Below, in pieces: positions 2,497 through 62,678 of a stretch of 64,000 bases of DNA. Position 1 is the first letter of the stretch; each line of letters opens with the position of its first letter. The stretch lies in the IMG/VR virus record IMGVR_UViG_3300005563_000030, positions 1 through 64,000 of that record, one strand, 5' to 3'. Both the position numbers and the translations under genes were made by a program. The notes beneath the pieces were generated by a model. It was not told the DNA's origin. It did not search any database and saw only the letters and a program-made list of their open reading frames with translations. This DNA comes from a virus.

Positions 2497-2498
2497 AA

Positions 2499-24657: not shown

Positions 24658-27600
24658 TTATCGACCAGTCAGTTGATAGAATTTAATCTGTTCTTCAGGA
24701 GTTAAGAGATTTATGAACTGTCTTACTACAGGTAGTAGTTTTAATGTTTTAATATACAGTTTTTTATCTCCTTTCTTTGCAAAACCTGATGCTCTTTGAT
24801 ATTCCTCGAATGGATGGAACAACTGAGTAAACCAGCTTATCCATTTCTCAATCATATTAATAGAAGCTGCTGGGTTACGAATTACACGAATAAAGTCAGC
24901 CGGATTAATATATTGTGTAATATCTGCACTGAAACGTGTAAGTTGAAGTTCCATTTCGGAGTTTAGCCAACTCTTATCATCGTCATCAGCACTAGCCACT
25001 CCAATCAGAACAAATGTAGCAATGATTACAGCCATTTCGTATAATGTCTTATTAATAGCTGCTTTCTGGAATTCATCATATCCTTCCTTAGTCCACATTC
25101 TTTGAAGTACTCCAAATTTGTATTCTTTCATGTCTGCAAGTATCTTAGATGCAAACTCTCTCCAATATCCACCTTCTACTGTACCAAGCTCATAGTCCAC
25201 ATATTTAGCACCATATCTTGAAGTAATAGCTTTGAAGAAATACTTACGGAACATAAGAGCAAGCTTTCCATACCAACGACGAGATAGCATAGCTTTATCA
25301 AATGAGTTATAAACCCCATGTAAGTTCTTAACCAACGCATGTAATCTATTACGAAAAGCTTTATCGTCTTCAGCAGACCATCCATAACGTTCAGCCATTA
25401 CTTGCTGATCCCCTTTAGCTTCTTTTAAGGCTTCATAGAGGTTAACTTCTTTTCCTGTTTTGGAATCAGTTAACTTTCTAGCGTGCATTAAGGACATCAT
25501 AGCAGTTGTCTGAATCTGATGCTCACCCCCTTTTTGTAAGAAGAAGAGAGAGCTTGTTTTCATCAACTTATTAAATGTTCCTTTAGACACATTATCTCCA
25601 TAGTGATCTTTAAACTCACCTTGTGGGACATCATAGTGGTCAGCGAGTTCATTAAGAAATGAATCTTCACCACCTGCGGCTTCAGCAACTAATGATGGAA
25701 GATGTTTTGCGTATTCCACCTGTGCCCATCCCCAATCCTTCATAGAATAGAATCGTCTACCAATAGCTTCAATTGTGTTATTGAAGTTACCTACTGCTAC
25801 GTTGCTTATACCACCATTTACGTTAGCTGCCATGTTTTGCATAGCTGTAACCAATGCTACTTTACCTGACAATTTATCCATGGAGATTTCCTGACCAAGT
25901 ACGTTTATAGTTTGGTCAAAAGATGAATCTCCATACACAACATCATTAATAAACTCATTAAGACGAGCATTTAGCATATCTTCACGAGTCATCTTAGAAA
26001 CCACTTTCTTAGTGATAGCATTAAAGATTTGATTACCTTTAGCATTTGTTTTAGCTATACTACGACCTTCAATACCAAGGTTAAAGTCACCGTTAAGTAC
26101 TGTTTTGAGTACAACAACATTAGGTTCTATCTCAGTCATACCTCTGTAGTTATTAGCCATTTGGCTATACATAAGTACTGTAGATAGAAGGTCTAATTTA
26201 ACATCACTATTATTTAATTTTCTTACATAATAAACAGGAATATGTTTTACTTCAGTTTTATCTTGTCTTTGCACTGTTCTATCATCTTCATTCTCAGCCT
26301 CGATACCTTTCAAGACTTTCTTTCCAAGTTTCTTTAAGTTTTCCTTTACACCATCTTTCCATTGCAGGTCAGAAAAGGCATTACCCCCTTTAGATACTTG
26401 TGGAATAATTCCATGCTCCAACGCATAAGAACCAAGCGCAGCATTAGCATCTTGATAGGTTTTATATAACTTAGCATAGTAAGGATTTCTCATTAAAGTG
26501 CCAAACTTAGTATTTCTATACTTCTCGCCAGGAAGAATTAATTCACCTGACAAGGCTCTAAATGTACCTTTTTTAGCATTATATGTTCCGGGAATAGCAC
26601 GTCTACCATAATAATCCATGGTATTTCTACCATATCCATATTCAATATTATCAACTTCTTTAGTGTTTGTTAACCACCATTCCTCAAATTGTCTAGCAGA
26701 CATTGTTCTTCTATTGTGGTCAATTATTTCATCAGCATGAGGATTAACTACAGTGTTTAATGAATACCATTCACCTTGGGCTTTTTTCCATGATTTAAGT
26801 TGTTGTGGATCAGATGGACGAGGTCCAAGTTGATCGTAGAATTTCTTCTTAGCTATTTCAAATTCGTCTGTGTTATATTCCTGATGGAATGCAAGACGTT
26901 TAACATAATCATATTTATCTTCACCTGTTTCCTCATCAACACCTACTTTCTCCCACACCCTAACTTCTTTTAAGAATTGTTTATTGAACTCTTCCTCATC
27001 CTTAGAAGTTTTATATAAAGCTGTACCTCTAGCTTTTTTATATTCGTCCATGAGGTATTTCTTGATTTCAAGGTCTTTTACGTGATTGTCATATACAACG
27101 TCCTTAAGAGCAAGAGCAATAGCAGCAGATACAGGGTCACGGCTATTAATTGTTGTACCAAGCCATTGACCAGCAGCAGAAATATCACGAAGAGCTTGTA
27201 CTAGCTGTTCTCTAAATTTCTCTTTGGTTAGTATCATATTGGTCATACCAGAAGCCTCAAGGTTCTTATTAGTATACTCAAGGTGTGGATATAACCATTC
27301 GGTTATGTATGTAAGAGCGAATGATTTGAAGTCTTCAATAATAAGCTCTTTTTTATCAATTGCGTCCCTTAACTTACTAAAGTTGTCATCTGTAGAATCT
27401 TTACCTTCTCTTAGAAGAAGAGATTTGATGTCATCAAGAGAACTATAAACGTTTAAGAGCTGTTGGATTTCACCAAGAATGTTAAGGTTATAAGTAATCT
27501 GACTCTGTGTTAGCTTACCTGCGTCTTTAACAGAGGCACGTAAGCTCTCAAACTTTGTTGAAGCTTGTTCGATATAGTGAATTGAATTAGATACGAAGTT

Positions 27601-28890
27601 GTTTATAGATGTAATTTCGTCCTGATTCTGAATAATGTCATTTAATATACTAATATCTTCTTTGAATTGGTCGCCTTTCTTTCTACTCTTAATAGTAGCA
27701 TTAAGTATAGCGATTTTATCCTTAATTCTGTCATATACATTCTCATAAGTAAGCTCAGTATCGGGCTTTTGATACATCGTAAGTATCTTAGCGTCCTGAA
27801 GCATTGCTCTAAGATCCGCCACATAGATGTCATCAACCACCATATTAGCGATGTCAGATAGCTTTGTATCTAGTGACATATTCTTAAAGTCAATATTAAT
27901 CTTTCTGAATAATGACTTTAACCAGTTTATGAATCTATTGAATGGTGACTGAGCCTTATTATACTTCTGTTCAGAAAGTTTACCAAGATAGTTAACTAAA
28001 GCTTCTTGTGCTCTCTCTTTTTCACCTAACTCTGAATAATTTGTGTCTGCCCAAGATATACTTTTTAAACCTTCCATGTCTGTAGATAACTGCTCCATAA
28101 GAGAGTTATACAAACTAGGATTTTGCTTTTCAAGTACAAGAATAAATGGGTGAATATATTCATGGAAAGCAGTATCTCCCTTAGCGTGAGCCAAGTTAAT
28201 AGTTACACCATTTCCATTAAACCATCCTCTATTTGGATTACTAGCATCGTTAATAATGCTGTAAGAAATATTAAACTTATTATAAAGTTTTTGTGCTATT
28301 GTTTGAAGCTTTCCAGGTACTTCAAATGGAGAGTTATCTCCTTTTTGGAGATAAATACTGTTACTTGCTTGAGAGAAGTCTCCTTGATTGTATAAGGACT
28401 TTACTTGATTCGGCTGCATTGCCACAATTTCAGAACCATCCATAAAAACGATCCCATCTTGATCTTCTCCAATCATTCTTCCGTTTTCAAGAAATGCTTG
28501 TTCTTCTTGTTCACTATTTATATTTTCTGGATTCTTTATGCTAAGAAATACAGGCATATTAACAGGCCCATTAAAGTTCATTGTCGCCTGTCTATCAGTA
28601 GAGAAATAAAGCCCCGGTCCATAAAAACCTAGTCCAGAAACTTTAAATTCATCAAAGTAGACATTTGTTCCATGATAGGCTAATCTAGGTTCTCCATTGC
28701 TGTCAGTTATTTTTGAATCTTTAAACCACTCTTTAAACTGAGGTGTATGAACTTGAGAATATTGTTCTAATGCTCTCTCCTTATCTTTTATAACTTTATT
28801 AATATCATCAAAAAGTATTGACTCCTTACCATTAGGAGCCAACACCTGTTGAATTTCACCATTATTATTTCTTACTACTTGACAGGCCAT
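24658..28890 (-). CDS. large virion cargo / polyvalent protein (1410 aa) with ADP-ribosyltransferase-like and zincin (HExxH) domains
   Basis: TPQFKEWF..SKITDSNGEP..YHGT...GLYFS (ART-PolyVal-like); FHEYIH at 28150-28164 with downstream QEALV; TM-like segment near the C-terminus. Confidence 0.75.
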   Translation of the reverse strand: MACQVVRNNNGEIQQVLAPNGKESILFDDINKVIKDKERALEQYSQVHTPQFKEWFKDSKITDSNGEPRLAYHGTNVYFDEFKVSGLGFYGPGLYFSTDRQATMNFNGPVNMPVFLSIKNPENINSEQEEQAFLENGRMIGEDQDGIVFMDGSEIVAMQPNQVKSLYNQGDFSQASNSIYLQKGDNSPFEVPGKLQTIAQKLYNKFNISYSIINDASNPNRGWFNGNGVTINLAHAKGDTAFHEYIHPFILVLEKQNPSLYNSLMEQLSTDMEGLKSISWADTNYSELGEKERAQEALVNYLGKLSEQKYNKAQSPFNRFINWLKSLFRKINIDFKNMSLDTKLSDIANMVVDDIYVADLRAMLQDAKILTMYQKPDTELTYENVYDRIKDKIAILNATIKSRKKGDQFKEDISILNDIIQNQDEITSINNFVSNSIHYIEQASTKFESLRASVKDAGKLTQSQITYNLNILGEIQQLLNVYSSLDDIKSLLLREGKDSTDDNFSKLRDAIDKKELIIEDFKSFALTYITEWLYPHLEYTNKNLEASGMTNMILTKEKFREQLVQALRDISAAGQWLGTTINSRDPVSAAIALALKDVVYDNHVKDLEIKKYLMDEYKKARGTALYKTSKDEEEFNKQFLKEVRVWEKVGVDEETGEDKYDYVKRLAFHQEYNTDEFEIAKKKFYDQLGPRPSDPQQLKSWKKAQGEWYSLNTVVNPHADEIIDHNRRTMSARQFEEWWLTNTKEVDNIEYGYGRNTMDYYGRRAIPGTYNAKKGTFRALSGELILPGEKYRNTKFGTLMRNPYYAKLYKTYQDANAALGSYALEHGIIPQVSKGGNAFSDLQWKDGVKENLKKLGKKVLKGIEAENEDDRTVQRQDKTEVKHIPVYYVRKLNNSDVKLDLLSTVLMYSQMANNYRGMTEIEPNVVVLKTVLNGDFNLGIEGRSIAKTNAKGNQIFNAITKKVVSKMTREDMLNARLNEFINDVVYGDSSFDQTINVLGQEISMDKLSGKVALVTAMQNMAANVNGGISNVAVGNFNNTIEAIGRRFYSMKDWGWAQVEYAKHLPSLVAEAAGGEDSFLNELADHYDVPQGEFKDHYGDNVSKGTFNKLMKTSSLFFLQKGGEHQIQTTAMMSLMHARKLTDSKTGKEVNLYEALKEAKGDQQVMAERYGWSAEDDKAFRNRLHALVKNLHGVYNSFDKAMLSRRWYGKLALMFRKYFFKAITSRYGAKYVDYELGTVEGGYWREFASKILADMKEYKFGVLQRMWTKEGYDEFQKAAINKTLYEMAVIIATFVLIGVASADDDDKSWLNSEMELQLTRFSADITQYINPADFIRVIRNPAASINMIEKWISWFTQLFHPFEEYQRASGFAKKGDKKLYIKTLKLLPVVRQFINLLTPEEQIKFYQLTGR

Positions 28891-28893
28891 ATT

Positions 28894-31017
28894 TTATTTT
28901 TTGCAACCATCTATATTTTTCATTGCTTCTTTCACATCGTCTTCAGTAACGTCCATACCACTCATATCTACATCATTTACATCGTAAGCCATTAGGTTTA
29001 GACCACCAAACATTCCACTACTCACTGTTTCAGTAGGAGTTTCTGTTGCTGTTGGTGTAGACGGAGTTATAGGAGCTGTTGGAGTTACTGGTACTGGAGC
29101 AGTAGGTGGAGAAGGTGGATTCTCTGGTGGAGTATTATCGTCTCTTCCAGCTTTTTTATTAACTTCTTCCATCATTTGTTCTCTTGTTAGACGTGTACCA
29201 AGATCAGCTACACCTGACATGTTTGAAGCACCAACACTTTCTATAGCATGGTAAACTCCAGTAATACCTCTAGGTATCATATCTCCTTCAGCAGTCATAG
29301 CTTCTCCATAATAGTCTTCATTACGTCCCTGAGCATTTTCTCTAGTTACCTTTACAAGCTTATAAGTTTGATAGGTAGCATCACCAGTTCCCGGTTGACG
29401 AACACGAACAAATTTCTTGAACTCTAAATGAGATTTATTCTCATCTATTTTCACATTATTTACGTTTGCTAATGCTAGATCGTCTATTGTTTCTTTAAAT
29501 TCTTTACTGCGTTCAGCAGAACCTTTTTCAGTACCCTTGAACTTATCTGTGAACATTGTGACAGTCATCTGTCGAATACCATTCTCATTAGCGAAAGTTA
29601 TACCTTTAGTACTTCTACTAGCCCCACCAGGTTTAACTTTTGTCTTTACAAATTGCAGATTATACTGATACTTGACATCTGTAGCATAAATTTGTTCAAA
29701 CCTATTATACAGTTGATTGTAAGTGAGACCAAAAACCTTTTCATATAATTTGTTTTTTACTCCATTCACATCCCTGTTTCTAACAAGATCATTGTATGCT
29801 TGACCTTCTGCGGCGGTGAAGTATGGTTTATAATTACCTTCTTTATCTACAATTCTCTGAGCATTTAGCTTCTTGAGAAATCTTGTAAATTCGCTCATTT
29901 GAGATAATGACAAAAGCTCAGATGCAATATCTGTAGCTTTGGACATATCCTCAAACATCATTGTAGGAATCATCTTAATATACGACTTGTTCTTAAACAT
30001 TAAGCCGTCTTTCACAATGAGATAATCGAACAGAGCTTTAGCATGATATTGAGTATGTGGATTCAAATATAGCTCAGTGAATGAGTCCATAAGAGAAGCC
30101 ATAACGTCAGGCTCAAGCTTACCACGAGTTTTACCTTCTATAGTGTTGATAAGGTCTTTATTATTAATATTTCTTACTTTCTTTTTACCAACCTTTGTAG
30201 TAGTGTTTACTGGAAGTATAAACTTCAAGAACATATTATTAGGAGCTAACCTAGCAGCGTTCTTAACAATATCCACAATTGTTTCAGCTCCACCATCATA
30301 GATAAGAGTATTACGTAATGTACTTGTTCTCTTATCATTTATTTCTACCCACTTCTTATAAGCAGCAATTTGAATAAATGCTGTGAAGTCATCCTTAATT
30401 TCTCTTAATTTTTCCGTAGTAAGGTTTTCTTTAAGATTAGCTACTACCTTATTTGAATTATCAACAAATGAAGGTGTTTGTTCCATGAACATCGTTCTAC
30501 TAAGATCGTTGACTTTGTTCATGATACTAATATTGTTAGCTGTAATCTTATGATAATATGGCTCGCTATTCTCGGTTCTATACTTAGCGTCACCTGTAAG
30601 AAGATAGCGAACGTCGAAAGGAATTGCAGACTCGTCAAATTTGTCTTCATCCATTCCAATACCAAGATCACTAAGATTCTTCATAACACCTTGCATCTGG
30701 TCAAAGTTCTTACCAAGACCTTTTGTAAGAGCTATAGCAGAACCCATCTTATAGAAGAACTGAGATTGGTCTTCCATAGCAATGAAGCTATCAAGCATCT
30801 CTTCTTGAAACACGCGAAGTTGATGGGGAGTGTAATTATTCTCCCCAAAAGCTACTTGACGTAATACATTAGCTAGTGTTTTAGTGCTACGCGAAGGCTC
30901 TCCCTGTTTGGGATTATTTGCTACGTTGTTATCCTTTGCATACTTAAGAGCTTCCTCTTTTGTATTAAAAGATACCCATTCTCCAGCACTATTTTTAACT
31001 TTATAAATACAAGCCAT
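28894..31017 (-). CDS. virion cargo protein (707 aa), probable C-terminal piece of the split virion RNA polymerase
   Basis: Directly follows the RNAP gene; helical QEEMLDSF...LFDYLIVKDG region recalls crAss RNAP C-termini (recognition from memory, unverified); Pro/Thr linker near the C-terminus. Confidence 0.6.
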   Translation of the reverse strand: MACIYKVKNSAGEWVSFNTKEEALKYAKDNNVANNPKQGEPSRSTKTLANVLRQVAFGENNYTPHQLRVFQEEMLDSFIAMEDQSQFFYKMGSAIALTKGLGKNFDQMQGVMKNLSDLGIGMDEDKFDESAIPFDVRYLLTGDAKYRTENSEPYYHKITANNISIMNKVNDLSRTMFMEQTPSFVDNSNKVVANLKENLTTEKLREIKDDFTAFIQIAAYKKWVEINDKRTSTLRNTLIYDGGAETIVDIVKNAARLAPNNMFLKFILPVNTTTKVGKKKVRNINNKDLINTIEGKTRGKLEPDVMASLMDSFTELYLNPHTQYHAKALFDYLIVKDGLMFKNKSYIKMIPTMMFEDMSKATDIASELLSLSQMSEFTRFLKKLNAQRIVDKEGNYKPYFTAAEGQAYNDLVRNRDVNGVKNKLYEKVFGLTYNQLYNRFEQIYATDVKYQYNLQFVKTKVKPGGASRSTKGITFANENGIRQMTVTMFTDKFKGTEKGSAERSKEFKETIDDLALANVNNVKIDENKSHLEFKKFVRVRQPGTGDATYQTYKLVKVTRENAQGRNEDYYGEAMTAEGDMIPRGITGVYHAIESVGASNMSGVADLGTRLTREQMMEEVNKKAGRDDNTPPENPPSPPTAPVPVTPTAPITPSTPTATETPTETVSSGMFGGLNLMAYDVNDVDMSGMDVTEDDVKEAMKNIDGCKK

Positions 31018-31021
31018 AAAG

Positions 31022-31029
31022 CAAATATA
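31022..31029 (-). promoter_or_regulatory. -7-like element between the two RNAP parts
   Basis: TATATTTG only 4 nt before the ATG, which would give a nearly leaderless mRNA. Confidence 0.4.
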
Positions 31030-31079
31030 CTAATTTAATTACATTATTTTAGGAATGTAAGCAAAACCGCTTAATTCGA

Positions 31080-34000
31080 TTAACATTCTACTTCTATGAT
31101 ACCATTAGATTCTAACATACTATATAAGTCATCATCAGACAAACTAGCGTAGTCTTTAATCTGAGCTGCTGTCTTAGCGATAGCTTCTTGTCTGAAAGCA
31201 TCTTTGTTAATATCCTCTTCTTCTTTAGTACGGATTGTATTCTGATTTACAGCTTTTAAATCCAGATAGTTCCTAATAGAAGGCTGATTGACAAAGTAAA
31301 TAGCTGTCTTTAAAGGAACCTTCAAAGATACTAGATAGTTCACTACTTTCAGAGCATCTACACCTAAGTTATAAAGGGCATTTAACTGCTCTTTAGCCTC
31401 ATCGGTAGCGGCTGTGATTAAGGTAGAGAGAACGTCATTTGTACGTTTACCCATATTAGGTCTTAATACATCCACTTCATTTTCTTTCACCCATCCATAC
31501 TCTCTATCTCCAGCAAAGCTATCAAATGTAACATCGTCAAATTTGAATGCTTGTTCAGGATCACGTAAAGATATTTCACCTTTATTAACACTTGAGTAAA
31601 TCAAGTTAGCGTTAACGTCAATACCAATGTTATTCTTACCAGTAGTGTTATTTTTAAAGCCGTTGTATTTGCCAATCATACTATCTACAGGATAGTTAAC
31701 TTTGGAACCAAATACAGAACCTATCTTTTTACCACTAGAGTCTTTTAGGGTAATATCATCGTTATCTTGAATATCAGCTAAAGCTGTTAAACTTGCAGGT
31801 GTTTTAGCAATGTCTCTCATACCTTCATTAGTCAATAATGCTGTATAAGAGTCTAAGATTTTGTTATTTAACACACCATTATTTAACTCTTTGGTTCTTG
31901 AGGCTTCTACAAACTCTTCTAAAGTACTAGGAAGTTTCAGTCTACCTAAAGCTTGAGCTACAAATCTGTCAAGGTATCTTTTCTTAACATCCATACCTAA
32001 CAGTTCTGCCGCTAAGTCTTCCGGATTTTGATTAGTTAAATATCCTTGATAATCTGTATCTTGTTCAGCTATATCAGCAACAATACCTTTTACAGCCTTG
32101 TTGTTTTTACCCATCCAGTCTTTATATTCAGCCCATTTTTCTTCACTTGTAGTGGCTGATCCATACTTTTTAAACTGAGTATTACCATTCTTATCCTTCT
32201 CCATATAGAAGTCATAACGAGTAATAAAGAGTTTATCTATATCAAAGTCAGCGCCAGACAGGGCAATAAGTTCTTTAGGGAACATACCTGTACTTCCTAA
32301 GTTTGCTGGTAAGAAGTCAACAAGTCTTAAGCTAATAAATGAGTGTTTATCCTGTGAAGGAATACGTACACCAAACATTTTAGCAATAGCTTCAGGAATA
32401 GGCTGATCTCTAGGAAGACCTAACAACTCCTTGAAGTGAGCTGGAAGCATAAACTCTGAGTAGTATTGACCTGTAGGTTTACCATTCTCATCATACTCTG
32501 AAACTTCGTGCTCCAGTTCGTGTTGGAATAATTGACCTACTTCAGTTACTTGCTCTTTAGTAACTACTCTCTCACTTTGAACACCATTATAGTTAGTGTC
32601 CCAATGTTCTCTTGTTACATAATCCCACTCTACTACTCTACCATCTACAACTCTCTTAGCTCTCTTCATCATTTTGGTATCAATACCTGAGAACAGAGCT
32701 ACTGTGTAACCCGGATTCTTCTGAGAAAGAATAGATTTAGAGAAATACGATAGGTATAACTGTTGAGACTTAGTTTTAACCGCAGATAAGTTAGCGTTAA
32801 ATCTAATATTTCCATTATCATCTAGGCTAAAGAAGTCTAATAACTGAGCGTCAGAACCAGATGATTCTAATGTAGACGCTACACGTTTGTAGAATGTAGC
32901 TAGTCTTGGTTGTACTTTACCTTCAGAGATAAGTTTATTAAGATCATCATTAAACTCAGTTATATCATATATTTCATTTAATGCTGCGTCAAAAGAGTTA
33001 CTTACTTTCTGAAGTACTGCATTCTGATATTCATCCTTAACTTGTCTAATTGTCTTTGTCACACCACTCATAACTACTTGTACATTATCTGACTGTTCAG
33101 AGTCAATCAATTGTAAAAGCTGAGTAGGGGTAGTGATTTCAAGCTTATTAGAAGGGTTCTCAGTCTGAAGACCAAAGTAGTTATTATCGTACAGGTGACC
33201 TTTTAAGTCAGAGAAATCAGCAGCTTTAGACACATCTAAAGTCATCATTTTAGAAGCAGATTCAGGAGCTGCAAAGTGTATACCATCAGCCTCCATCTTT
33301 CTTCTAAGAGTATCTAAAGTTTTCCAGTTAGGACGAGGTTTCCATTCACCTGTTTTAACATCCTTATAAGAAGTTAGGTCAGGTTGAAGAACAACTACCG
33401 ACATTTTGAAATAAGACTTACCATCTTTAAACACAAGTTTCAAAGAGTTAGTCATTTCATCCCAAGCTAAAATACCTTTTTCATCATCGAACACACCATC
33501 AAATCTTTTAACAATATCTTCACCTCTCTCGTTCTTAACTGTGTATTCTATGTTATGAATATCACCACCATCTTCCAGAACGTCTAAGAATTTAGCAAGA
33601 CGTGGAGATAATCTACCAAGTCCCCATAATGTATAACGAAGACCTTTCACAGTAGTATACATCTGAGCATCAGCTATCTTCGTACCATCTGCTGAAATAG
33701 GCTCTTTAAATATTGCTACTTTAGAGTGAGTAAATGCTTCAGTAATACCAAGTTCAGGTGCTAACAAATCAGTTCTAATAGATACAATAGCTGCGTTATC
33801 ACCTTTAGCACGTTTTACAGCATCAATACCACCATCATTCTTTAATGATAATGCTGGATCGCCATGCAATATCTGGTTGTAAGCTAGTGTATTAATATAG
33901 TCATTTAATAATACATGTCCAATATTTGTTTTGAAATGCTCATTTTTAGATACTGATTGAAGATTAAGATCAGCATCACCAACAACAAACTTTCTGTGAA

Positions 34001-37000
34001 GAAGTACATTGTTGTAGTCGCCATTCTGACCAACTTTGATAATACCTTCTTTAACCATCAGATTCATAGTATCATCTACCATCTTGTTGAGAGCGTTCTT
34101 CACTTCCTCTTTGATAGTAGCTTTATCTTCATCAGACAGAGCATCTCCATTACGTGCTTTTCTTTCAAGCAAGTTGGCTGTAGCTTTTGTTAATAAAGCA
34201 GTCATATTATCACTGAATTTCAAACCACGATAGCCTTTATTTACAGTAAAGCCATCTTCTTGGAATGAACCTGTGTGATAGTTTTCAACTATGTTATCTC
34301 TTAGTGTACCTATTTCACCTTGAACTCTTTGGATTCTATTGTACTCTTTTTCAACTTCACCCAGCATTATACCAAGTGTTTTCTCAGTAACAGTTCCTTC
34401 TCTATAAACGTCTAAGTTTATAGGCAGGTTTACTGTAGCTCCTGTTTTAGAAGCTTCAAGTACACGAATTAAGTGTGGAGTAGTTACAATATCTCCAGCA
34501 CCAGTCTTCTGTATCTTCTTATAAGAAACATAGAAGTTAAGGTTATTAATGAAGAACTCACGTGGAGAGTAGGAACCATAGGTTACACCTTCTTTTTGAT
34601 CTCTAAATTCTTGTGTAATTACTTGACCTTGTTTGTTTGTTTCAACTGCACGAAGACCGTCAATATTTTGATATTGTAGGTTATCAGCTACAGCTTCAAA
34701 GTCAGCAGAATTTAGAAGAAAATTTCGAGTAAGCCACTCAGCATCATAAGCATCCATAGCAGCACTAGCTTCTTCTCTATATCCTTGTTCTCTAAGTTGT
34801 CTTCTTGTATTAGCATCTCTTAATTGATATGAATATTTAACATTAAATGTACCATCTTGATGAGCAAATACAACTTTATTATCTGCTGTAGTAAATGATG
34901 ATTCTCCGACTGTTTCATCAAAGAACGCATTACCTTTAGCTACATTTAAGATACGTGTAACCATAGCTACATCAGCTCCTTCAGTTCCTTCTTCAGCAAC
35001 ATCTGGAACACCAGCTTCTTCGTCTTCTTCTTTAGTTCTTCTAAAGAATGGATTAGCATTAGTTGTCAAGGTCTTTGAAAGTTCATCCATGAAAGCTCTA
35101 TTTAGAGTGATTTCATCGGCGATTTTCATTACTTGAACATAATTATAGTTGCTCTTAGAGATGAAGATATTTTGAGGATCATCAAACTGTAACTCAGCTC
35201 CCTGAGCTTTGTATTGCTTGTTTAACTCATCAAATTTCTTAGCTCCTATACTAAGTAAAGAATACTTAACAAAGTCATGTGACATCTGAATGCCTATACT
35301 ACTAAGAATTGATCTTACTTCATTTACCCTCTGAGATAATTCCTCATCATTGATTCTTAAAGCTCTTCTTGGATCAAAGTAAGTGTTTCTTATTCTATCA
35401 ATTGCTCTACGAACAGTAGCTTGGTTCTCCTCACTCATTTCAGCATAACCATCAATGAAGTTATTAGACCATTTTTCAAACTGTACGTTCTCTACGTTTT
35501 TACGGTTAGCCGCATAAGAAACATATTGACCTTTTTTAGCATCGTAGTGTGTGAATACATAATCAATACGATATTTATTAAAACCTTTTTTAACCATCTC
35601 TAAAAGAGCTTGGTTTTTATTAGCTTCTATTCTATTCTCACCAAATAATACGTCTTCATTCAATCCTGTATCTTTGATGAATTTTTCAACAAAGTGACGA
35701 GATTGTTCATTATTGTCAGCAAAACGTATCATTCTCTGTAAGAATTTCACAGGATCATTAATATTTGCTGTAGCTCTTAATAATCCATAGTATACAGAAA
35801 TAGCGTCAATTGTAGCTATAACTGGTTTACCATTGGCTGTTTGAGTGTTTCCAAATCTGTCTGTTACTGGATAAGAAGTGAAGCCAATATAGTGACGCAG
35901 CATTCCCGGTAAGGATGAGAAACCACCAATGTTTTCAGTTTGGTTATCATATCCAGTTTTAGGAGAACCCGTATCTTGTTCTTCTTCTTCGAGACCGTTT
36001 TCAGCAAATTGCTCGAAGTAGTTCATTGAGTTAATGTACTTCTTAGCTGCATCCTTAATCACCTTTCTACTCTTCTCATCAGAATAAATAAAGTTCTCAT
36101 CAGAATTAGCTATAGCTGATAACTGTGCTTGACTAGCTCCAGCATATCTAATATTATTTGGATTATATGTTAGTTGAAGATCATTTAAGATTTCATCCAA
36201 TAATTTACTATCTGTTAATTTACTATATTCACCAGCCTTTCTGTACATTTCAAAATAAGCAGCTACATTCTGTATAACTTGTTTTGAAGTACGAGGATCA
36301 AGGTTTCTATTAATAATTCTTGTACCTGTTCCAACTGCTATCTGTGTAGGACGAGCTGGAATAAGCATGAATTTGAATTCCTGAGTTGTATTTTCGTCAG
36401 TAGTTTCTTGAGTGAAGGAGTTAGACGCAATATTAGAATACTTATATCCACCAGTGTTAATCTTGTTAAATACAGCATCCAATTGAGTACCGCTTCTTAA
36501 TAACCATTTGAAGAAACGTTCAATCATATCAAATAACTTCTGTAATGGACCAGCATTCTTTTTCTTATTGTTCCATTTACGAAACTCTTCAGCCATCCAT
36601 TCTTCAGCAGCCTTCTCTGTAGCTTGTTTTTCAGAAAGGTTAGTCCATTGACCATTAGCTTTCTGTTCTTTGATATGGTCTCTAATAGACTTTCCTTCTT
36701 TTTTCAATTGACTATACAATTGATCTGTAGCATATTTAAGAAGCTCTTGTTGCTCTTTAGCAGACATAAGTATATTAAATACTGCGTGGAAAGCTTCGTG
36801 ATATTCTTGACCAACTGCTGGAACTTGGCTGTTTAAATAGATTATACCATTTCTATAAGCACCCCATACATCAGTTTGTGGATTACCTACACCTTGTTGT
36901 TGTATTTGATTTATTACAGTTTCAAGGTCTTCAGTTTTGATAAATGAAGGCAGTACTGAAGATAAGTACATCTTAGCCTGCTCCATATCCATTAATTGAT

Positions 37001-40000
37001 TTAACTCTTTTACATTCTTATCAGAACGCATAAAGTCAAACTCAGCTCCGTTATTTGGTTGTTGCTGTTCTACTACTTTAAGTTTCATATCAGCAGCAAG
37101 TTCTTTGGGGCTCACTCCGGGAAGATCCATCATCTCACCAGTACTCATACTGAAGAATTGAACAGTATCTCCTTCTACGCGGTAATCAATACCTACTGAG
37201 TTCAAAGCATCTTTTACTGTAGGAAATGCAATTCCTTCCTGATCTTCTTGAGCTTGAGTAGAAGTCTCAGAAGTAACAGGAGCACCAGATTGATCTACTG
37301 GAACTGACGCAGTTTCAGCAAACATTCCACCTACTGCTGGCGTTGCACCAAATAAATCTTCAATAGGATTTACATTAGCATTAGTTACGTCTTCATAAAG
37401 TACCTGTCCATCAGCAGTACTAATTTTAGTAATACTATTAAAAGGCATCCAATGTTGTTCATCTGCACGGTCAAGTAACACTTGATTTTCTTGTTCATTC
37501 ACTCGAATAATTCTAAATGTACGACCATCTTGTGTATTTGCTGTAGTAGCATTACCACCAGTTAATGCTTGACCAACTCGTCTGTTTTTCTCCTGTTCTT
37601 CTGGAGTTATTGGTGCTTGAGTTGGCTGAGGCACTGGCTGACCTTGCTCTGTTCTCTCAGGAGCTGCTTGAGCTGTAGCTGCTCTATTTTCTTTGTTTGC
37701 AGCAGCCTGTATATTTTGTTCATTAGGAACAAATTTCATTGTTCCGTTTTTAAATACTTCAGGACCAGTTGCAGCAATTAATGAAGCGGCTAACGTATCA
37801 GCACTATCAACTTCAGCATCATCTAATACGCTCTGTTTAAAGTTGTTTTCTGCTATTGTAACACCAAGTTCTTTTAATACATCATCTTTCTCTTCTCTCT
37901 TTTTTACTTCCTTATTAATTGCTTCTACTAAGGCATCAAATGTGTTTATAGTAGCAAGCTTCTGTGGAGCAATAATCACACGACTTCTATAACCTGAAAC
38001 AGGTTCGTGAACGTCAAGACGTAATGCTCCAATAGGACTTAATGTAAGGTCATAAAACACCTTACCGTTTGGATCAGAGATAAACAGTTTATTATTTAAT
38101 TCTTCGTTATATTGTTTATTATAGTTTTTAGCTTCATCTGTAGGAAGTTTGTAATAGATTTCTCTATCCCCAATTAATAACTTCAGAGTAGACTCTTCTT
38201 TAGTAGACTCAATAAAGTTGGCATTAGCTGATTCTAAAGATCGTGCTTTTAATGAGTCAAGCATTTCATCTTTAGACTGTGTGGTCATCGTAGTTGGGTG
38301 AAGAGCTACTGGTTGAATAGTTCCATCTGGTTTCATAACCAGTCCAATATAACGACTATTTACATCTAGTAGTTTCTGGGCAGAAGAGGCTAGGTAGTCT
38401 AAAATCATTCTATCGTCAGCTCCCGGTGTTCTATAGAAATTAGCACCATATAAAGGAGTCATGAAGTCTGTTCTTTCTCTCACCATAGTATCTTCAACAA
38501 GACGTTTTGGTATAGAGATAATTACAGTAGTGTTGATAGGATTACCATTGGCTACAGGTAAAGAAACTGTATTATGCTTCACTTGACTATAGAAGCGAGG
38601 AGCTTGACCTCTTTCTAATAAGTCTAGTTCACCATATGTAATTACAGTGTCTACAAGTTCATTAAGTTCTTGTGGTGTAAGTGTGTATTCCTGAAGATTA
38701 TTATTTCTAAACTTCAGAGCTAAGTAATTTGTAAAAGCTACTTGTTTATTAAACTCATCTACGTCAGCCGCATGTTGAGCAGCAGGTTTACCTGTAAATT
38801 GTTGATACTGTTCAGGAGTAAGTCTGTCAATTGTAACAAAGTTATTTCCTACTTTGAATAGTAAGCGTTTAGGATAAGCAACCTTACCTATTTCTGCGCC
38901 ATTATGTGATACAGACAAGTCAATAGGAGCCCTTGACGCATACATTCCGGGGAATCCAGGTATTTGTGTGAATGATTGATCTGCTTGTTGTCTATTATAA
39001 GCCTCTTGATAATTTGGAGCAAGAGGTCTCACGGTAACACTAAGATTTTGTACTACTTGGTCTTTATTACCAGAGAATATAGCATCATTAAATGTACCTT
39101 TAAGGTCAGGAGCGACCCATACTTTACCCATAAAGTCACTGGTTCTAAACTCACTCTGTTCATTTACAGGTGGTGGAGTATTAGGTGTAACTGGTGGACC
39201 ACCAGCTTGGTTATCTGGTTGTTCTGGAGTATTTGGACTAGGTGTTTTCTGATTAGAAGTAGAGCCGACGCCTTCTAAGAAAGTCTTAGCTTGGTCAACT
39301 ACAGTATTAGGAACATAGAATTTCTTACCAGAAAGAGAAGTAACCATTGCATAGTCTTTTAAGTCTATGTTTGGATCTTCTAATTTTAGTTCGTCTATAG
39401 TTTGAAATCCTAATACTTGTAAACTGTCATCATCAAGTTTTGATTTACCTTCGATGGCAGCCATGAAATATCCTACTAGTCTAGCTCTTTCACTATCATC
39501 TTCAACAGGTTTATTTTCAACAAATCCTTCCTGTCCTTGTTGAACTGTTGGAGCTTGTGTTGCAGGATTTTGTTGTGTGTTTGTATTATTAGCTTGAGGC
39601 TGATTTGTTGTTTGTTGACCAGCATTTGCTTGTGAAGTATTGAAAGCAGCTTGTTGTTGAGCAGCTTGACCTTGTGTTTGGTCAGGAGCTAACTGAACAG
39701 GAGTTTCAATAGCTTCTTTTCTAGCTTTCTCAATAGCTTCAAATTGTTCTTTAAACCCACCTTTTGTAGTAAGACGAGCATATCTATCAATAGCTACGTT
39801 GTTTCTCATACCTAACTGCCAAATATCTTTAGCATATCCTTTCAATTCAGATACAAGATCAGGATGCATTAATTGATCTATGGTGATAGTGTCATCACCC
39901 ATATTCTTATAGAATGCTAATTTGTTTCTTCCTATTTCTGAATAGAAGTTAGCAACAAGCATATGGTATTTAGCATTTTGAAGCTTTTCATCCTTCTCAT

Positions 40001-44988: not shown

Positions 44989-45004
44989 AATCTATGTTAT
45001 TTAG

Positions 45005-45042
45005 CAAAGATAGTAATTTTAATTATTCCTTTTACAAAGGTA
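45005..45042 (-). promoter_or_regulatory. tandem Bacteroidota-type promoter elements
   Basis: TACCTTTG (45042-45035) and TATCTTTG (45012-45005); the TTTG of the first lies 22 nt upstream of the second. Confidence 0.6.
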
Positions 45043-45056
45043 ATTGAAGCTGGTTA

Positions 45057-48000
45057 TTATCGTTCTACCAGCTTAGTTCCATCAAAATAAAGAGTCTTAC
45101 CAGTCTTTCTATTATAATAAGATTTACCTGCTTGTACATTCTGAACACCACCTGCGGCAGTAGTTTTAGCACTACCAACTGTTGTTGGAGTTGTAGGCAT
45201 TCCCAAGGCAGGATTAACACTAAATAAAGGCTGATAACCATTATAGTCTCCGTATTGATCGAAGGCTCTTGAATATTTCATTATAAGGTTACCATTTCTA
45301 TTAAGAGCTCTATTGTCTGCAATAGTCTTATATAAAGCATCAAGTGATGTAAGTTTCTGTTCTTGTTGAGTAGCTTTAGACTGAAGAACTTTATTCTCAA
45401 ATACTTCACGTGCTTGCTGGTCTGCTAAAGAATTCTTATCTCTTACTTGTGTGTTGTAAGTGATTTCATTATTCTTAATCTGAGCATTTTGGTTCTCGTA
45501 GTTACCTAACACTTGATTATTAGCAGCGTACTTCTGAGCAGCCAAGTTAGCAACATTAGCGGCAGCTCCACCGGGATTATTTGCGGACATGTCTTGCACG
45601 CCTTGTACACTTGCATTAAAGTCAGCTTGGTTCTGTTGTAAAGCAGCAGTAGGATCAAGTAACTTGTAACGTAACTGGTTGAACTCCATTGGGTTATATT
45701 TACCCGGTTCACGCTCTAAAGCAGCTAAATATGAGTTAGTTGCAGAAGCAGTATCATACCAGCGTAAAGGCTCATAAAATCCACTTCTTTTTTGTTGTTT
45801 AATATTTATTGGAGTAATGCTGGTATCTAAGTCTTGAGCAACTGGAATATCCTTCGCCGGGGTATCATCAGGCCATGTGATTGTAGGCTTCTTATCAGGA
45901 GCTACAAGACGCATAGTTCTAGGTCCAAGAATACCATCAGGGTATAGTGTTTTTAACTTCTCAAGGTTCTTAGGATCATCTAATACACCAGGTTTGAAAA
46001 GACCTTTATCATCTACAAGTCCCATTTGTCTAGCTTGAGTCATGCCTTTCTGGTGCATACCTTCACCCCACATCTTTCTAATAGCATCAGGGTTATTTTT
46101 TAACTGATAGTCATACAAGGCTGTCTGGAAATCAGCAGCATTATTAATTCCTTCATACTTAAATCCTTTTGCTTTCAGTTCGTCTAAGTAGTTTTGGAAT
46201 GTAAAGTCCTGAGTAGCAGGGAATGCGTCAGAGTGACCAGCAGGAGTTTTCATACCTGTTTTGGACCCTGCATAACCAGCAAGTTGCATGTACTGTGGTT
46301 CTGTTGTATCTACACCATATTGAGCATGATGCCATTTAGCAGCATTACGTGCAAAGTTAGCCATCTGTCTAACATGGGGATCTTTCGAGTGAAGAGCTTC
46401 CTCAGTAGTTTTACCTGTTCTCTTCTTATAAGCAGTAAATTTACCTCTGTTCTCAGGCTTGATATGAATACCTGTTTTAGCTTCAGGAGTATCTTGTCCA
46501 TCTGTAGGAATACCTGTCGCAGCTTTAACCATTTCTTGACGGTTAAATAAACTATCAAATAATTGTTGCTGTGTAGGTAGAGATTTAAAATGATCCATAT
46601 TTAATCTAGTTGAAAGTTCAGCGTATTTGTCTAATGAGTCTCTACTCTTAGCGCCTAATTCTATTTTCTTTGTTATTTTATTTCTTTGGTCTTCGTAGTA
46701 ATCATTAGCGTTAACTAACGCTTCTGCGTGAGACATAGCCTTATTAGTAGGCATACCAGTTGTCTGCTCTACATCCTCAGGACTAAGTTTTAAGATTTTA
46801 GAATTTCTATCCTTTCTTATATTAGATGTATTCTCAAGTACACGATGTACATTAGGAAGAAATACTCCACCCTGTTCATGTGTATTAGCATCATTAGCTA
46901 CTTGTCCAATCTGACCATCATTTGTTTGAAAAGCTTCACCCTTTTCAGCTTCTACATTAGCAAGAGCCTTTCCACCTTCTTGTAAGCCATATGTTTTAGG
47001 CATTCCACCATTTTTCATAACATTTTTATTAGGAATAGTGAAATTAGATGGTCTTATTGATAAGTCTCCTGTTTCTGCAATATCTACATTTTGTGTAGCT
47101 GGATTGTACTTATAATCTCTACTATAACTAGTTCCTCTAGTTGTATTAGTTTGAGTATAACTAGGTGTTACTTGTAATGATGCAAAGCGTCTACCATAGT
47201 TTAACTTTGTAACATCATTCTGTCCTTCTTCAGTACCCCATAGAGGCTGTCTTCCTTGTGATACGTTGTAGTTGTTCACAGCCTGAAGACTTTTTAAATA
47301 ACGATCATAATCATCACCTAAAGTACTCTTTACTTCATCAGGTGTTAAGAAATCATTATACGCTGTACTTTGTACATAATTTTGCGCACCAGTTGTGTCA
47401 CCTTTACGTCTCAAATCAACAAGTCCTTTAAAGTAATCTTGAAATCCTTGTGGGTTTTTTGCTTTGAGTTGAGCGTTCAACTTATCTTTAAAGTATGCTA
47501 ATTGAGCGTTTGCTGAATAATATTGATCTGTTGGGTCTGGAGCTGGCGTGGAGTTAGCAGCTAATTGTCCACCAGTTTGCATTGTTCTATAACCTGCTGC
47601 GGTTCCAGTATTTGGTGTTTCTGAGGAAGATACTCCTGATAACGCACCAGAGTTTAGGAATCCTTGCCACGCACCTTTATTAGGAAAGTAAACGCTTTGT
47701 TGTCCTGAACCTGTTGGATAGGTAGCAGAAAAGTTAGTAGGTTGATTGAGATCCATTGGAGTATACCCATTATCTGGAATAGCTATATCATACCCACTTC
47801 TAAGAGTAGTCATAGGCATTAAATCTACACTACCAATATGTCGAACATCTCTATCACGAAATGTGCCTATTTGTTGAATTATTTTCTCTTTGTTATCCCA
47901 AGGAATGCGCCCTTGACTGTCTTTTACAGAAACAGCATTCAAATATCTATCGCCTTTAACTCCAGTTGTGTGTACATATTTTCCTGTACCTCCACCGTAT

Positions 48001-61924: not shown

Positions 61925-61937
61925 ATTCTAAATTTTA

Positions 61938-62660: not shown

Positions 62661-62678
62661 TGTTATAAATTTTTATTG

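What the first reader, a model, noticed from the sequence alone, without database searches (positions are those of the whole stretch)
28894..33000. Virion RNA polymerase appears split after the catalytic barrels, with a dedicated linker module at the break
Seen: the 3791-aa ORF stops about 385 aa after DFDID, shortly after ATDEAKE...NQPSIR. A 62-bp gap with a TATATTTG element precedes the 707-aa ORF, which is in a different frame. Inference: the 707-aa protein supplies the remaining RNAP C-terminal region. The sequences at the break (LSDDDLYSMLESNGIIEVEC and MACIYKVKNSAGEWVSFNTKEEALKY) look like two halves of a small inserted docking domain rather than polymerase sequence.
Basis: partly seen in the sequence, partly recalled or inferred. 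Interest (0 to 1): 0.7.

Follow-up and report, generated by a model that had tools for sequence, protein, structure and literature searches.

The report
Split crAss polymerase with cysteine-tipped joint
In this crAss-like phage the particle-borne RNA polymerase is encoded as two proteins, and the cut ends carry small extra modules, each tipped by one of the proteins' very few cysteines, which suggests the halves are re-tethered end to end.

Summary

**What the two ORFs are**
- The 3791-aa ORF (31080-42455, minus strand) ends 384 aa after DFDID.
- A 62-nt gap follows, then the 707-aa ORF (28894-31017) in another frame.
- AlphaFold models of the two pieces abut on the solved phi14:2 gp66 polymerase (6VR4). 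The large ORF covers gp66 666-1696 (Z 16.9). The 707-aa ORF, residues 42-614, covers gp66 1701-2112 (Z 13.5).

**How unusual the split is**
- Of 154 relatives carrying the catalytic motif, 118 hold both parts in one chain.
- The closest one-chain relatives (53-54% identical) have a 20-residue linker. This phage has 65 residues there: a tail (helix, GIIEVEC, stop) and a head (MAC, beta-hairpin, helix).

**The cysteine pattern**
- The 3791-aa protein has one cysteine, its last residue. The 707-aa protein has two (3 and 705). The next protein, 1410 aa, has one (3).
- All 19 large-ORF relatives keep a single terminal Cys.
- Ten named crAss phages show facing Cys pairs at 13 of 15 protein junctions.

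**Most likely mechanism (inferred, not shown)**
A head-to-tail disulfide tether, as seen by cryo-EM between cyanophage A4 gp27 and gp26. This scan noted the terminal-cysteine chain before on other genomes.

The parts
31080..42455 (-). 3791-aa ORF (P0001). A gp67-like N-terminal part is fused to the equivalent of gp66 residues 1 to about 1700. It has one cysteine, its last residue.
31140..34457 (-). Polymerase core, P0001 residues 2667-3772. It holds both barrels, the bridge helix equivalent (3592-3622) and the trigger loop equivalent (3671-3709).
   Evidence: VIA-align to 6vr4_A residues 666-1696: Z 16.9, rmsd 4.9, 851 aligned. Profile map.
32235..32249 (-). Catalytic motif DFDID, P0001 residues 3403-3407.
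   Evidence: aligns to gp66 1361-1365
31083..31139 (-). Tail module, P0001 residues 3773-3791: SDDDLYSMLESNGIIEVEC. Predicted helix 3774-3783, then a low-confidence GIIEVEC. The Cys3791 codon is 31083-31085.
   Evidence: It lies beyond the structural match to gp66. Secondary structure. Absent from one-chain relatives. G3785 and C3791 are invariant in 19 sequences.
31018..31079 (-). 62-nt gap between the two ORFs. Its 3' part, 31022-31042 (GTAATTAAATTAGTATATTTG), is conserved in relatives.
   Evidence: No Rfam match. No stable fold, z +0.9.
28894..31017 (-). 707-aa ORF (P0002), the C-terminal part of the polymerase. Its only cysteines are at residues 3 and 705.
30895..31017 (-). Head module, P0002 residues 1-41: MAC, beta-hairpin (5-8, 14-17), helix (20-29), then a linker. 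The Cys3 codon is 31009-31011.
   Evidence: AlphaFold model, pLDDT 76-83 over residues 1-30. No counterpart in gp66 at this place. Missing from P0195 and P0199.
29176..30894 (-). P0002 residues 42-614, equivalent to gp66 residues 1701-2112.
   Evidence: VIA-align: Z 13.5, rmsd 6.8, 375 aligned. Top Foldseek hit is 6vr4_A, E 5.8e-3, prob 1.00.
28897..29136 (-). P0002 residues 628-707: a disordered Pro/Thr-rich linker (628-691), then the conserved FGGL...acidic helix tail with Cys705 (codon 28903-28905).
24658..28890 (-). 1410-aa ORF (P0003), the gp65 orthologue and next link of the chain. Its only cysteine is Cys3 (codon 28882-28884).
   Evidence: phmmer against gp65, E 2.6e-35. ART-PolyVal match. 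Cys census.

Best explanation
**Shown**
- This clade of roughly 125-kb crAss-like phages encodes its virion-type two-barrel RNA polymerase in two chains.
- The 3791-aa protein carries a gp67-like front part and everything up to about 60 residues past the trigger loop. That includes both barrels, DFDID and the bridge helix.
- The 707-aa protein carries the remaining C-terminal domains, equivalent to gp66 1701-2112.
- The cut ends bear about 60 residues that one-chain relatives lack. These are a C-terminal tail (acidic helix, short strand-like GxxEVxC) and an N-terminal head (M-A-C, beta-hairpin, helix).
- The tail and the head each hold one of the very few cysteines in these proteins.

**Inferred**
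- The tail of one chain docks on the head of the next, and the two cysteines form an intermolecular disulfide once the particle is in an oxidising setting.
- This would re-create a single thread: 3791-aa, then 707-aa, then 1410-aa.
- Such a thread could be packed in fixed proportion and pulled through the tail in order.
- The reducing cytoplasm of the host would then release the parts, so the polymerase halves can fold together and transcribe early genes.
- The absence of cysteine elsewhere would prevent wrong cross-links in proteins that must unfold to pass through the tail.
For: **Split and identity**
- Structure matches of the two models abut at gp66 1696/1701.
- The profile seeded on one-chain P0047 aligns P0001 3076-3784, P0002 5-632 and gp66 1299-1839 (E 1e-77) colinearly.
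- A second profile aligns gp66 330-1038 to P0001 at about 2290-3020 (E 4e-50).
- In L004-L007 a single ORF is colinear with P0001 2660-3702, P0002 7-398 and part of P0003.

**The one-chain form is the rule**
- Of 154 fetched proteins with DFD[IV]D (at least 2000 aa), 118 have the P0002 domain in the same chain.
- 17 of the 36 without it are this clade, and 18 have at least 950 residues after the motif.

**Extra module at the break**
- P0195 and P0199 match the P0002 profile only from position 34-36.
- They have a 20-residue linker where the split form has 23 + 42 residues.

**Cysteines in the window**
- P0001 has 1 (the last residue), P0002 has 2 (3 and 705), P0003 has 1 (3).
- The six-ORF cargo block has 4 Cys in 8347 aa. 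The other ORFs of the window have 149 in 13077 aa, or 1.14%.

**Cysteines in relatives**
- All 19 of 19 P0001 relatives have exactly one Cys, at the last or second-to-last residue.
- In the P0002 family, 37 of 40 have Cys3, 39 of 40 have a Cys in the last 5 residues, and 38 of 40 have no internal Cys.
- The one-chain relatives P0195 and P0199 have no Cys at the fused site.
- 161 of 168 giants of at least 3000 aa have a Cys in the last 10 residues.

**Junction rule in named phages**
- 13 of 15 junctions in 10 phages have facing Cys near both ends.
- This includes crAss001 and cr128_1, where the first protein is encoded on the opposite strand.
- The first protein of each chain lacks an N-terminal Cys, and the last lacks a C-terminal one.

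**Precedent and context**
- In cyanophage A4, the gp27 C-terminal helix sits in a gp26 cleft and is fixed by a Cys1715-Cys5 disulfide (PMC12002296, passages read).
- The crAss001 virion uses many inter-subunit disulfides (PMC10172136, passages read).
Against: - No physical evidence of a bond or of docking exists for any crAss-like phage.
- In isolation, the last seven residues of the tail have pLDDT under 50.
- Two of 15 junctions in named phages lack an N-terminal Cys at the annotated start: crAss002 gp33 (first Cys at residue 35) and IAS gp056 (first Cys at 624).
- Gut phages keep several internal cysteines. Examples are Carjivirus gp44 with 8 and cr271_1 gp_64693 with 15. The depletion is therefore strict only in the marine-type clade.
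- 7 of 168 giants lack a Cys in the last 10 residues.
- Head sequences differ between junctions, so only the cysteine and the end position are shared, not one domain family.
- The relatives are related to one another, so the counts are not independent events.
Confidence: 0.55

Rival explanations
1. The split is real, but the tail and head do not bind each other. Each end would be a separate signal, for example for packaging into the capsid cargo zone, for anchoring to the portal or capsid through a cysteine, or for the order of ejection. Each free polypeptide would need its own copy.
For: - Head sequences differ between junctions.
- The tail is poorly ordered on its own.
- crAss001 tail and portal-vertex proteins do form disulfides with one another (PMC10172136). 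Partners other than the neighbouring cargo protein are therefore conceivable.
Against: - Cysteines come in facing pairs. The first protein of a chain has none at its N-terminus and the last has none at its C-terminus.
- Where two parts are fused, both cysteines are absent (P0195, P0199 and P0001 itself at the gp67/gp66 point).
- A signal needed by every cargo protein should also be on the Cys-free 843-, 1125- and 471-aa proteins.
Confidence: 0.25
2. The two terminal cysteines meet, but the link is not a disulfide. It could be a shared metal ion together with the neighbouring acidic residues, or another thiol chemistry.
For: - Tails are rich in Asp and Glu next to the Cys (EVEC, DDC, QECK).
- Hosts of gut crAss phages are anaerobes, where oxidation is less assured.
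Against: - Two thiols alone do not make a usual zinc site.
- No His or second Cys is conserved nearby.
- The one solved precedent is a disulfide.
Confidence: 0.1
3. The two ORFs are expressed as one chain, by ribosome hopping from the TGT before the stop to the TGT after the ATG, by frameshifting, or by splicing out the 62-nt gap.
For: - The last sense codon of the large ORF and the third codon of the 707-aa ORF are both TGT.
- crAss-like phages are known for introns and unusual decoding (PMC7886860, passages read).
Against: - The gap shows no stable fold (z +0.9; 164 of 200 shuffles fold as well) and no Rfam family.
- 62 nt is far too short for a group I intron.
- 8 of 19 relatives have one more residue after the Cys, which removes the codon-next-to-stop geometry.
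- The same Cys ends occur where the two genes lie on opposite strands (crAss001, cr128_1, IAS).
- The head and tail are conserved as protein, and one-chain relatives lack them.
Confidence: 0.03
4. The break is a sequencing or assembly error, or a recent pseudogene.
For: None found.
Against: - 19 large-ORF and 40 small-ORF homologues from separate metagenomes share the same ends.
- Three further loci show the same layout.
- Both ORFs are intact, and their models fold with mean pLDDT of about 78.
Confidence: 0.01

Closest known systems
Virion RNA polymerase gp66 of Cellulophaga phage phi14:2 (PDB 6VR4; Drobysheva et al., bioRxiv 10.1101/2020.03.07.982082, abstract and sections 7 and 8 read)
   Same: - Same fold over gp66 residues 666-2112.
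- DFDID motif with Ile at the fourth position.
- Equivalents of the bridge helix and trigger loop.
- The same neighbour, gp65, corresponding to P0003.
- gp66 itself has only two cysteines, Cys3 and Cys2179, and its neighbours gp67 and gp65 face them with ...NTIC and MSC....
   Different: - gp66 is one 2180-aa chain.
- Here the chain is cut at about gp66 residue 1700, and about 60 extra residues are added at the cut.
- The front part is fused to the gp67-like protein, with no cysteine at that fusion point.
One-chain giant forms of the crAss transcription block (4000-6200 aa)
   Same: - Colinear with P0001 plus P0002.
- They end with a Cys near the C-terminus (161 of 168 giants).
[quoted passage not shown]
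- Yutin et al. 2021 (PMC7886860, passages read) say that protein boundaries vary.
   Different: - No break after the trigger loop, and no head or tail there.
- Those papers propose cleavage of the polyprotein. In the passages I searched they do not mention cysteines.
Cyanopodophage A4 ejection proteins gp27 and gp26 (PNAS 2025, PMC12002296, passages read)
   Same: A C-terminal helix of one ejection protein sits on the next protein and is fixed by a disulfide between a near-C-terminal Cys (1715) and Cys5 of the partner. This is the same end-to-end geometry as proposed here.
   Different: - Unrelated proteins. Foldseek gave the A4 pre-ejectosome chain 9k2v_A only E 0.057, prob 0.10, TM 0.09.
- A4 has one pair, not a chain, and no polymerase is involved.
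- The bond is seen by cryo-EM there and only inferred here.
crAss001 cargo proteins gp47, gp50 and gp49 (Bayfield et al. 2023, PMC10172136, passages read)
   Same: - The same three-protein set, detected in virions by mass spectrometry.
- By my census, the sole Cys of gp47 is 2339 of 2341. gp50 has Cys5 and Cys2404 of 2412. The sole Cys of gp49 is Cys5.
   Different: - The polymerase is not split.
- The cargo proteins were not resolved in the maps.
- The disulfides reported there concern tail and portal-vertex proteins only.

Membership tests
crAss-type virion two-barrel RNA polymerase (phi14:2 gp66 family) | Catalytic DFD[I/V]D motif | tested here: met
   DFDID at P0001 residues 3403-3407, aligned to gp66 1361-1365.
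crAss-type virion two-barrel RNA polymerase (phi14:2 gp66 family) | Fold of the two-barrel core with connector, bridge helix and trigger loop | tested here: met
   - The model of P0001 residues 2653-3791 matches 6vr4_A 666-1696: Z 16.9, rmsd 4.9 A, 851 aligned.
- The next rows are RDR2 and QDE-1 at Z 11.7.
crAss-type virion two-barrel RNA polymerase (phi14:2 gp66 family) | C-terminal domains of gp66 (residues about 1700-2112) | tested here: met
   They are present, but on the separate 707-aa ORF: Z 13.5 against 6vr4_A 1701-2112.
crAss-type virion two-barrel RNA polymerase (phi14:2 gp66 family) | All of it on a single polypeptide | tested here: not met
   A stop codon, a 62-nt gap and a new start lie at the gp66 1696/1701 equivalent. 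This is therefore a two-chain variant.
crAss-type virion two-barrel RNA polymerase (phi14:2 gp66 family) | Packed in the virion, ejected, and transcribes early genes | not testable with these tools
   Inferred only from orthology and gene order with phi14:2 gp67, gp66 and gp65.
crAss-type virion two-barrel RNA polymerase (phi14:2 gp66 family) | Cleft-blocking domain (gp66 residues 196-233) | not tested
   My profiles reached gp66 only from residue 330 onwards.
Disulfide-tethered ejection protein pair (cyanophage A4 gp27-gp26 type) | Cys near the C-terminus of one protein and within the first 6 residues of the next | tested here: met
   Cys3791 of 3791 faces Cys3, and Cys705 of 707 faces Cys3.
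Disulfide-tethered ejection protein pair (cyanophage A4 gp27-gp26 type) | A disulfide actually formed in the particle | not testable with these tools
   This needs virions, examined by non-reducing gels, mass spectrometry or cryo-EM.
Disulfide-tethered ejection protein pair (cyanophage A4 gp27-gp26 type) | Homology to A4 gp26 or gp27 | tested here: inconclusive
   Foldseek gave 9k2v_A at E 0.057, prob 0.10, TM 0.09. This is an analogy of mechanism, not membership.
Split intein | An N-intein of about 100 aa starting with Cys at the end of the first chain, and a C-intein ending in His-Asn before a Cys, Ser or Thr in the second | tested here: not met
   - The tail beyond the polymerase fold is 19 aa, and the head is 41 aa without a His-Asn-Cys junction.
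- No intein family appears in the Pfam scan of either ORF.
- The intein features are recalled, not taken from a call.

The most novel reading that the evidence does not exclude
The giant injected proteins of crAss-like phages form a covalent, reducible train. Each gene boundary in the polymerase block is bridged after translation by a disulfide between the last cysteine of one protein and the first cysteine of the next. Evolution can therefore cut or fuse the polyprotein anywhere, provided a cysteine-tipped tail and head are added or dropped. This window would then be a natural experiment: a cut made inside the polymerase itself and mended in this way. The host cytoplasm would act as the release switch.
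Probability: 0.45. Interest if true: 0.8.

Novelty: new variant of a known kind. Interest (0 to 1): 0.62.

Why it matters
**An open question this bears on**
- crAss-like phages are the most abundant viruses of the human gut. How they pack and inject more than 8000 residues of protein, polymerase included, is unresolved.
- A 2026 paper on phage N4 (PMC13434306, passages read) still calls the structures of crassvirus ejection proteins an open need.

**Why a disulfide tether would help**
- It would explain how separately encoded parts keep fixed proportions and order.
- It would explain why these proteins are almost free of cysteine.
- It would explain why gene boundaries in this block drift so freely.

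**Why this split is useful**
- The polymerase core and its C-terminal domains can be made as separate proteins.
- The idea is directly testable with cultured phages (phi14:2, crAss001) using simple non-reducing gels.

Tried and rejected
**Searches that found no match**
- Single-sequence searches found nothing for the 707-aa ORF in PDB sequences, Pfam, PHROGs, tblastn against the phage collection, or a peptide-pattern scan of viral contigs.
- P0001 alone found nothing in PDB sequences.
- The profile of alignment A1 found nothing in PDB sequences.
- The word-index search for longer relatives of P0002 found none. The full profile search then found many.
- phmmer of gp66 against the fetched proteins found nothing. 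Iterated profiles were needed.

**Complex prediction**
- A complex prediction of the tail (P0001 3740-3791) with the head (P0002 1-60) gave no verdict: score 0.18 against a mark of 0.32.
- It counts neither for nor against binding.

**Protein Atlas search**
- The search with the head (residues 1-45) gave no usable hit by features. By structure it gave only short, unspecific matches.

**Signals in the gap**
- The sigma-70 type promoter scan found no site in 30800-31300. It does not model Bacteroidota promoters.
- TAnnTTTG occurs 46 times on this strand of the window, mostly inside genes. The element alone is therefore weak evidence of a promoter.
- There is no Rfam family and no stable RNA fold at the gap. 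Hopping and intron readings were dropped for this reason.

**Literature**
- Two searches for a description of terminal cysteines or disulfides in crAss cargo proteins gave nothing relevant beyond Bayfield 2023.
- The Drobysheva preprint has no occurrence of cysteine or disulfide.
- The final Nature version (PMC12127119) is not held, and supplements were closed. An existing mention cannot be excluded.

Full report
**Observation**

All genes concerned lie on the minus strand.
- ORF 31080-42455 gives a 3791-aa protein (P0001) with DFDID at residues 3403-3407. It ends ...ATDEAKE...NQPSIR...LSDDDLYSMLESNGIIEVEC, then TAA.
- A 62-nt gap (31018-31079) follows, with TATATTTG at 31029-31022, 4 nt before the ATG.
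- ORF 28894-31017 then gives a 707-aa protein (P0002) starting MACIYKVKNSAGEWVSFNTKEEALKY, in another frame.
- The next ORF, 24658-28890 (P0003, 1410 aa), starts MACQVV.

**Identity of the two pieces**

Single-sequence searches of P0002 found nothing in PDB sequences, Pfam, PHROGs or the phage collection. It does have 40 homologues of 539-1129 aa in metagenomes.

A profile of 25 of them, scored against 1.84 billion representatives, found 168 proteins.
- Many are 4000-6200 aa long.
- They carry the P0002 core (profile positions about 70-378) at about residues 3500-4400.

In viral contigs L004-L007, one ORF is colinear with P0001 2660-3702, P0002 7-398 and part of P0003.

A profile iterated from the natural one-chain protein P0047 (residues 2901 to the end) aligns three proteins in one register:

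| Protein | Residues | Profile positions |
|---|---|---|
| P0001 | 3076-3784 | 7-707 |
| P0002 | 5-632 | 653-1247 |
| phi14:2 gp66 | 1299-1839 (E 1e-77) | 279-840 |

This maps gp66 features onto P0001:

| gp66 feature | gp66 residues | P0001 residues |
|---|---|---|
| DFDID | 1361 | 3403 |
| Bridge helix | 1529-1559 | 3592-3622 |
| Trigger loop | 1598-1636 | 3671-3709 |

The gp66 feature positions come from sections of the Drobysheva preprint that I read.

The structures agree.
- The AlphaFold model of P0002 (mean pLDDT 77.8) has 6vr4_A as its top Foldseek hit (E 5.8e-3, prob 1.00).
- By VIA-align, its residues 42-614 match chain residues 1701-2112: Z 13.5, rmsd 6.8 A, 375 aligned. The next row scores Z 4.9.
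- The model of the last 1139 aa of P0001 (mean pLDDT 77.6) matches chain residues 666-1696: Z 16.9, rmsd 4.9 A, 851 aligned. RDR2 and QDE-1 follow at Z 11.7.
- The two models therefore abut at gp66 1696/1701.

Other assignments:
- A second profile places gp66 330-1038 at about P0001 2290-3020 (E 4e-50). P0001 is therefore a gp67-like front part fused to the first 1700 or so residues of a gp66 equivalent.
- P0003 is the gp65 orthologue (E 2.6e-35).

**How common the split is**

I fetched 154 proteins that have DFD[IV]D, are at least 2000 aa long and start with Met.
- 118 hold the P0002 domain in the same chain.
- Of the 36 without a detected domain, 17 belong to the P0001 family, with 363-395 residues after the motif.
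- 18 have at least 950 residues after the motif, so they are long enough to hold a diverged copy.
- One (P0276) ends 343 residues after the motif without a cysteine and was not followed up.
- The split is thus a trait of one clade: 19 sequences in all, two of them with a variant motif.

**The break itself**

The closest one-chain relatives are P0195 (4664 aa) and P0199 (4661 aa), at 53-54% identity.
- They match the P0002 profile only from position 34-36.
- Between the shared ...AAQ[IL]K.. and ..L..VLRQ..FGE.N. segments they have about 20 residues.
- This phage has 23 residues to the stop and 42 from the start.

The additions are as follows.
- Tail, P0001 3773-3791: a helix DDLYSMLESN (3774-3783), then GIIEVEC with pLDDT under 50.
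- Head, P0002 1-41: MAC, strands 5-8 and 14-17, helix 20-29, with pLDDT 76-83 over the first 30 residues.

The helix that superposes on gp66 1701-1714 is P0002 45-57. The profile also aligns the P0001 tail helix to the same columns. This suggests, as an inference, that the cut arose with a short duplication.

Both modules are conserved.
- G3785 and C3791 are invariant in 19 sequences.
- M1, C3 and Y5 are nearly invariant in 25 sequences.

**Cysteines**

Census of the window proteins and their phi14:2 counterparts:

| Protein | Length (aa) | Cysteines |
|---|---|---|
| P0001 | 3791 | one: residue 3791, the last |
| P0002 | 707 | two: residues 3 and 705 |
| P0003 | 1410 | one: residue 3 |
| phi14:2 gp66 | 2180 | two: residues 3 and 2179 |
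| phi14:2 gp65 | 1421 | one: residue 3 |

- phi14:2 gp67 ends ...NTIC.
- In the window, the six consecutive ORFs of 471, 1125, 843, 3791, 707 and 1410 aa hold 4 Cys in 8347 residues.
- The other ORFs of at least 120 aa hold 149 Cys in 13077 residues (1.14%). At that rate the block would have about 95.

In relatives (unless stated):
- All 19 of 19 P0001 relatives have exactly one Cys, at the last or second-to-last residue.
- Of 40 P0002 relatives, 37 have Cys3. The three exceptions are two N-terminal fragments and one gene call that starts upstream of an MVC.
- 39 of the 40 have a Cys in the last five residues. The exception, P0005, diverges near its end.
- 38 of the 40 have no other Cys, even those with inserted NADAR-like or MoCo-carrier-like domains.
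- P0195 and P0199 have only the C-terminal Cys.
- Of 168 fetched giants of at least 3000 aa, 161 have a Cys in the last ten residues and 3 have one in the first six.

**Other junctions**

Ten named phages were examined. A junction counts as paired when a Cys lies within about 10 residues of the upstream C-terminus and within 6 of the downstream N-terminus.

| Phage | Junctions examined | Junctions with facing Cys |
|---|---|---|
| phi14:2 | 2 | 2 |
| Carjivirus communis | 1 | 1 |
| Rudgehvirus | 1 | 1 |
| crAss001 | 2 | 2 |
| crAss002 | 1 | 0 |
| IAS virus | 3 | 2 |
| cr50_1 | 1 | 1 |
| cr271_1 | 1 | 1 |
| cr128_1 | 2 | 2 |
| cr52_1 | 1 | 1 |
| Total | 15 | 13 |

- The two misses are crAss002 gp33 (first Cys at residue 35) and IAS gp056 (first Cys at 624). 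In both cases the upstream protein does end with a Cys. For IAS I assumed the order of the proteins.
- In crAss001, cr128_1 and IAS, the first protein is encoded on the opposite strand and still ends with a Cys. The signal is therefore a protein feature, not a translational one.
- In every chain, the first protein has no N-terminal Cys and the last has no C-terminal Cys.
- Gut phages keep more internal cysteines than the marine-type ones (up to 15 in cr271_1 gp_64693).
- Metagenomic loci L001/L002, L003, L004 and L005-L007 follow the rule at all their junctions.

**Mechanism**

Shown:
- The gene is split.
- Each half has been assigned to its part of the gp66 fold.
- Extra end modules are present, and their cysteines face each other.

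Inferred:
- The tail docks on the head, and the two cysteines form a disulfide in the oxidising milieu of the free particle.
- This would chain P0001, P0002 and P0003 into one thread that is packed and ejected in order.
- The host cytoplasm would reduce the bond.

Support for the inference:
- Cysteine pairs co-occur with gene boundaries: gained at this new cut, absent at fused sites.
- Other cysteines are purged.
- In cyanophage A4, the gp27 C-terminal helix lies in a gp26 cleft with a Cys1715-Cys5 disulfide (PMC12002296, passages read).
- crAss001 uses many inter-subunit disulfides in its tail and portal vertex (PMC10172136, passages read).

No experiment on any crAss-like phage bears on the tether. 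I put the tether at about 0.5 and the split assignment at about 0.95.

**Rivals**
- The ends are independent signals or anchors to other virion parts (0.25). This reading does not explain why the pairs face each other, or why both cysteines vanish on fusion.
- The link is a metal or other thiol chemistry (0.1).
- The ORFs are expressed as one chain by hopping or splicing (0.03). Against it: no RNA family or fold at the gap, a residue after the Cys in 8 of 19 tails, and the opposite-strand cases.
- The break is an artefact (0.01). Conservation refutes it.

**The gap**
- Its 3' part, GTAATTAAATTAGTATATTTG plus 4 nt before the ATG, is identical in L001 and similar in L003, although the flanking proteins are only 48-67% identical.
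- It is unique in the window.
- It fits the TAnnTTTG element that I recall as the -7 box of Bacteroidota promoters, so a promoter for a nearly leaderless transcript is possible. I could not test this.

**What is known**
- Fusion of the three proteins into one polyprotein is noted in the Drobysheva preprint (section 8, read).
- Drifting protein boundaries are noted by Yutin et al. 2021 (passages read).
- I found no printed description of the terminal cysteines or of this particular cut. This rests on searches, on zero occurrences of cysteine or disulfide in the preprint, and on nothing relevant in the N4 paper of 2026.
- The final Nature version and all supplements could not be seen.

**Earlier notes of this scan**
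- The scan had already noted the terminal-cysteine chain on at least eight other genomes, one of them with a split polymerase.
- I reached the pattern before reading those notes.
- I took from them the lead to the A4 paper, which I then checked myself.

**Verdict**

This is a real, clade-specific two-chain variant of the crAss virion polymerase, with a dedicated cysteine-tipped joint. Its value is as a natural experiment for an untested but readily testable tether hypothesis.

Noticed in passing
window 42457-49842 (minus strand): The three ORFs upstream of the polymerase block (843, 1125 and 471 aa) have no cysteine at all, against 1.14% in the other ORFs of the window. The 843-aa protein starts like Carjivirus gp46, which is also Cys-free, and matches a PHROG virion structural protein.
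   Followed up: partly
window 24658-28890 (minus strand): P0003, the gp65 orthologue, carries an ART-PolyVal ADP-ribosyltransferase domain at residues 63-168 (E 6.9e-11). It also has an HEYIH zincin-type motif at residue 243. gp65 has HEIMH at 245.
   Followed up: partly
homologues of window 28894-31017 (P0008, P0009, P0017, P0031, P0037 and others): Relatives of the 707-aa protein carry varied extra domains (PF12694, PF08719, PF25176) between the polymerase part and the Cys-tipped tail. They still have no internal cysteine. In IAS virus, a PF12694-type protein is a separate link of the chain with a Cys near both ends.
   Followed up: partly
window 31022-31042 (minus strand): A conserved 21-nt motif ends 4 nt before the start of the 707-aa ORF. 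It is identical in L001, similar in L003 and unique in the window. It may be a promoter for a nearly leaderless transcript.
   Followed up: partly
window 36786-36800 (minus strand; P0001 residues 1886-1890): An invariant HEAFH motif lies in the gp67-like front part of the 3791-aa protein, just before the point that corresponds to the N-terminus of gp66. No cysteine remains at that fusion point.
   Followed up: partly
window 59591-63137 (minus strand): Three consecutive ORFs (777, 240 and 152 aa) have cysteine-rich N-termini, for example 8 Cys in the first 40 residues of the 777-aa protein. This is the opposite of the cargo block.
   Followed up: no
L012 11624-24361 (crAss002 gp33) and L013 12629-19108 (IAS gp056): These are the two exceptions to the junction rule. 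The annotated N-termini have no early cysteine, although the upstream proteins end with one. No in-frame upstream start with a Cys was found.
   Followed up: partly
P0276 (3930 aa): This distant relative ends 343 residues after the catalytic motif without a terminal cysteine. It may be an independent cut or a truncated gene call.
   Followed up: no
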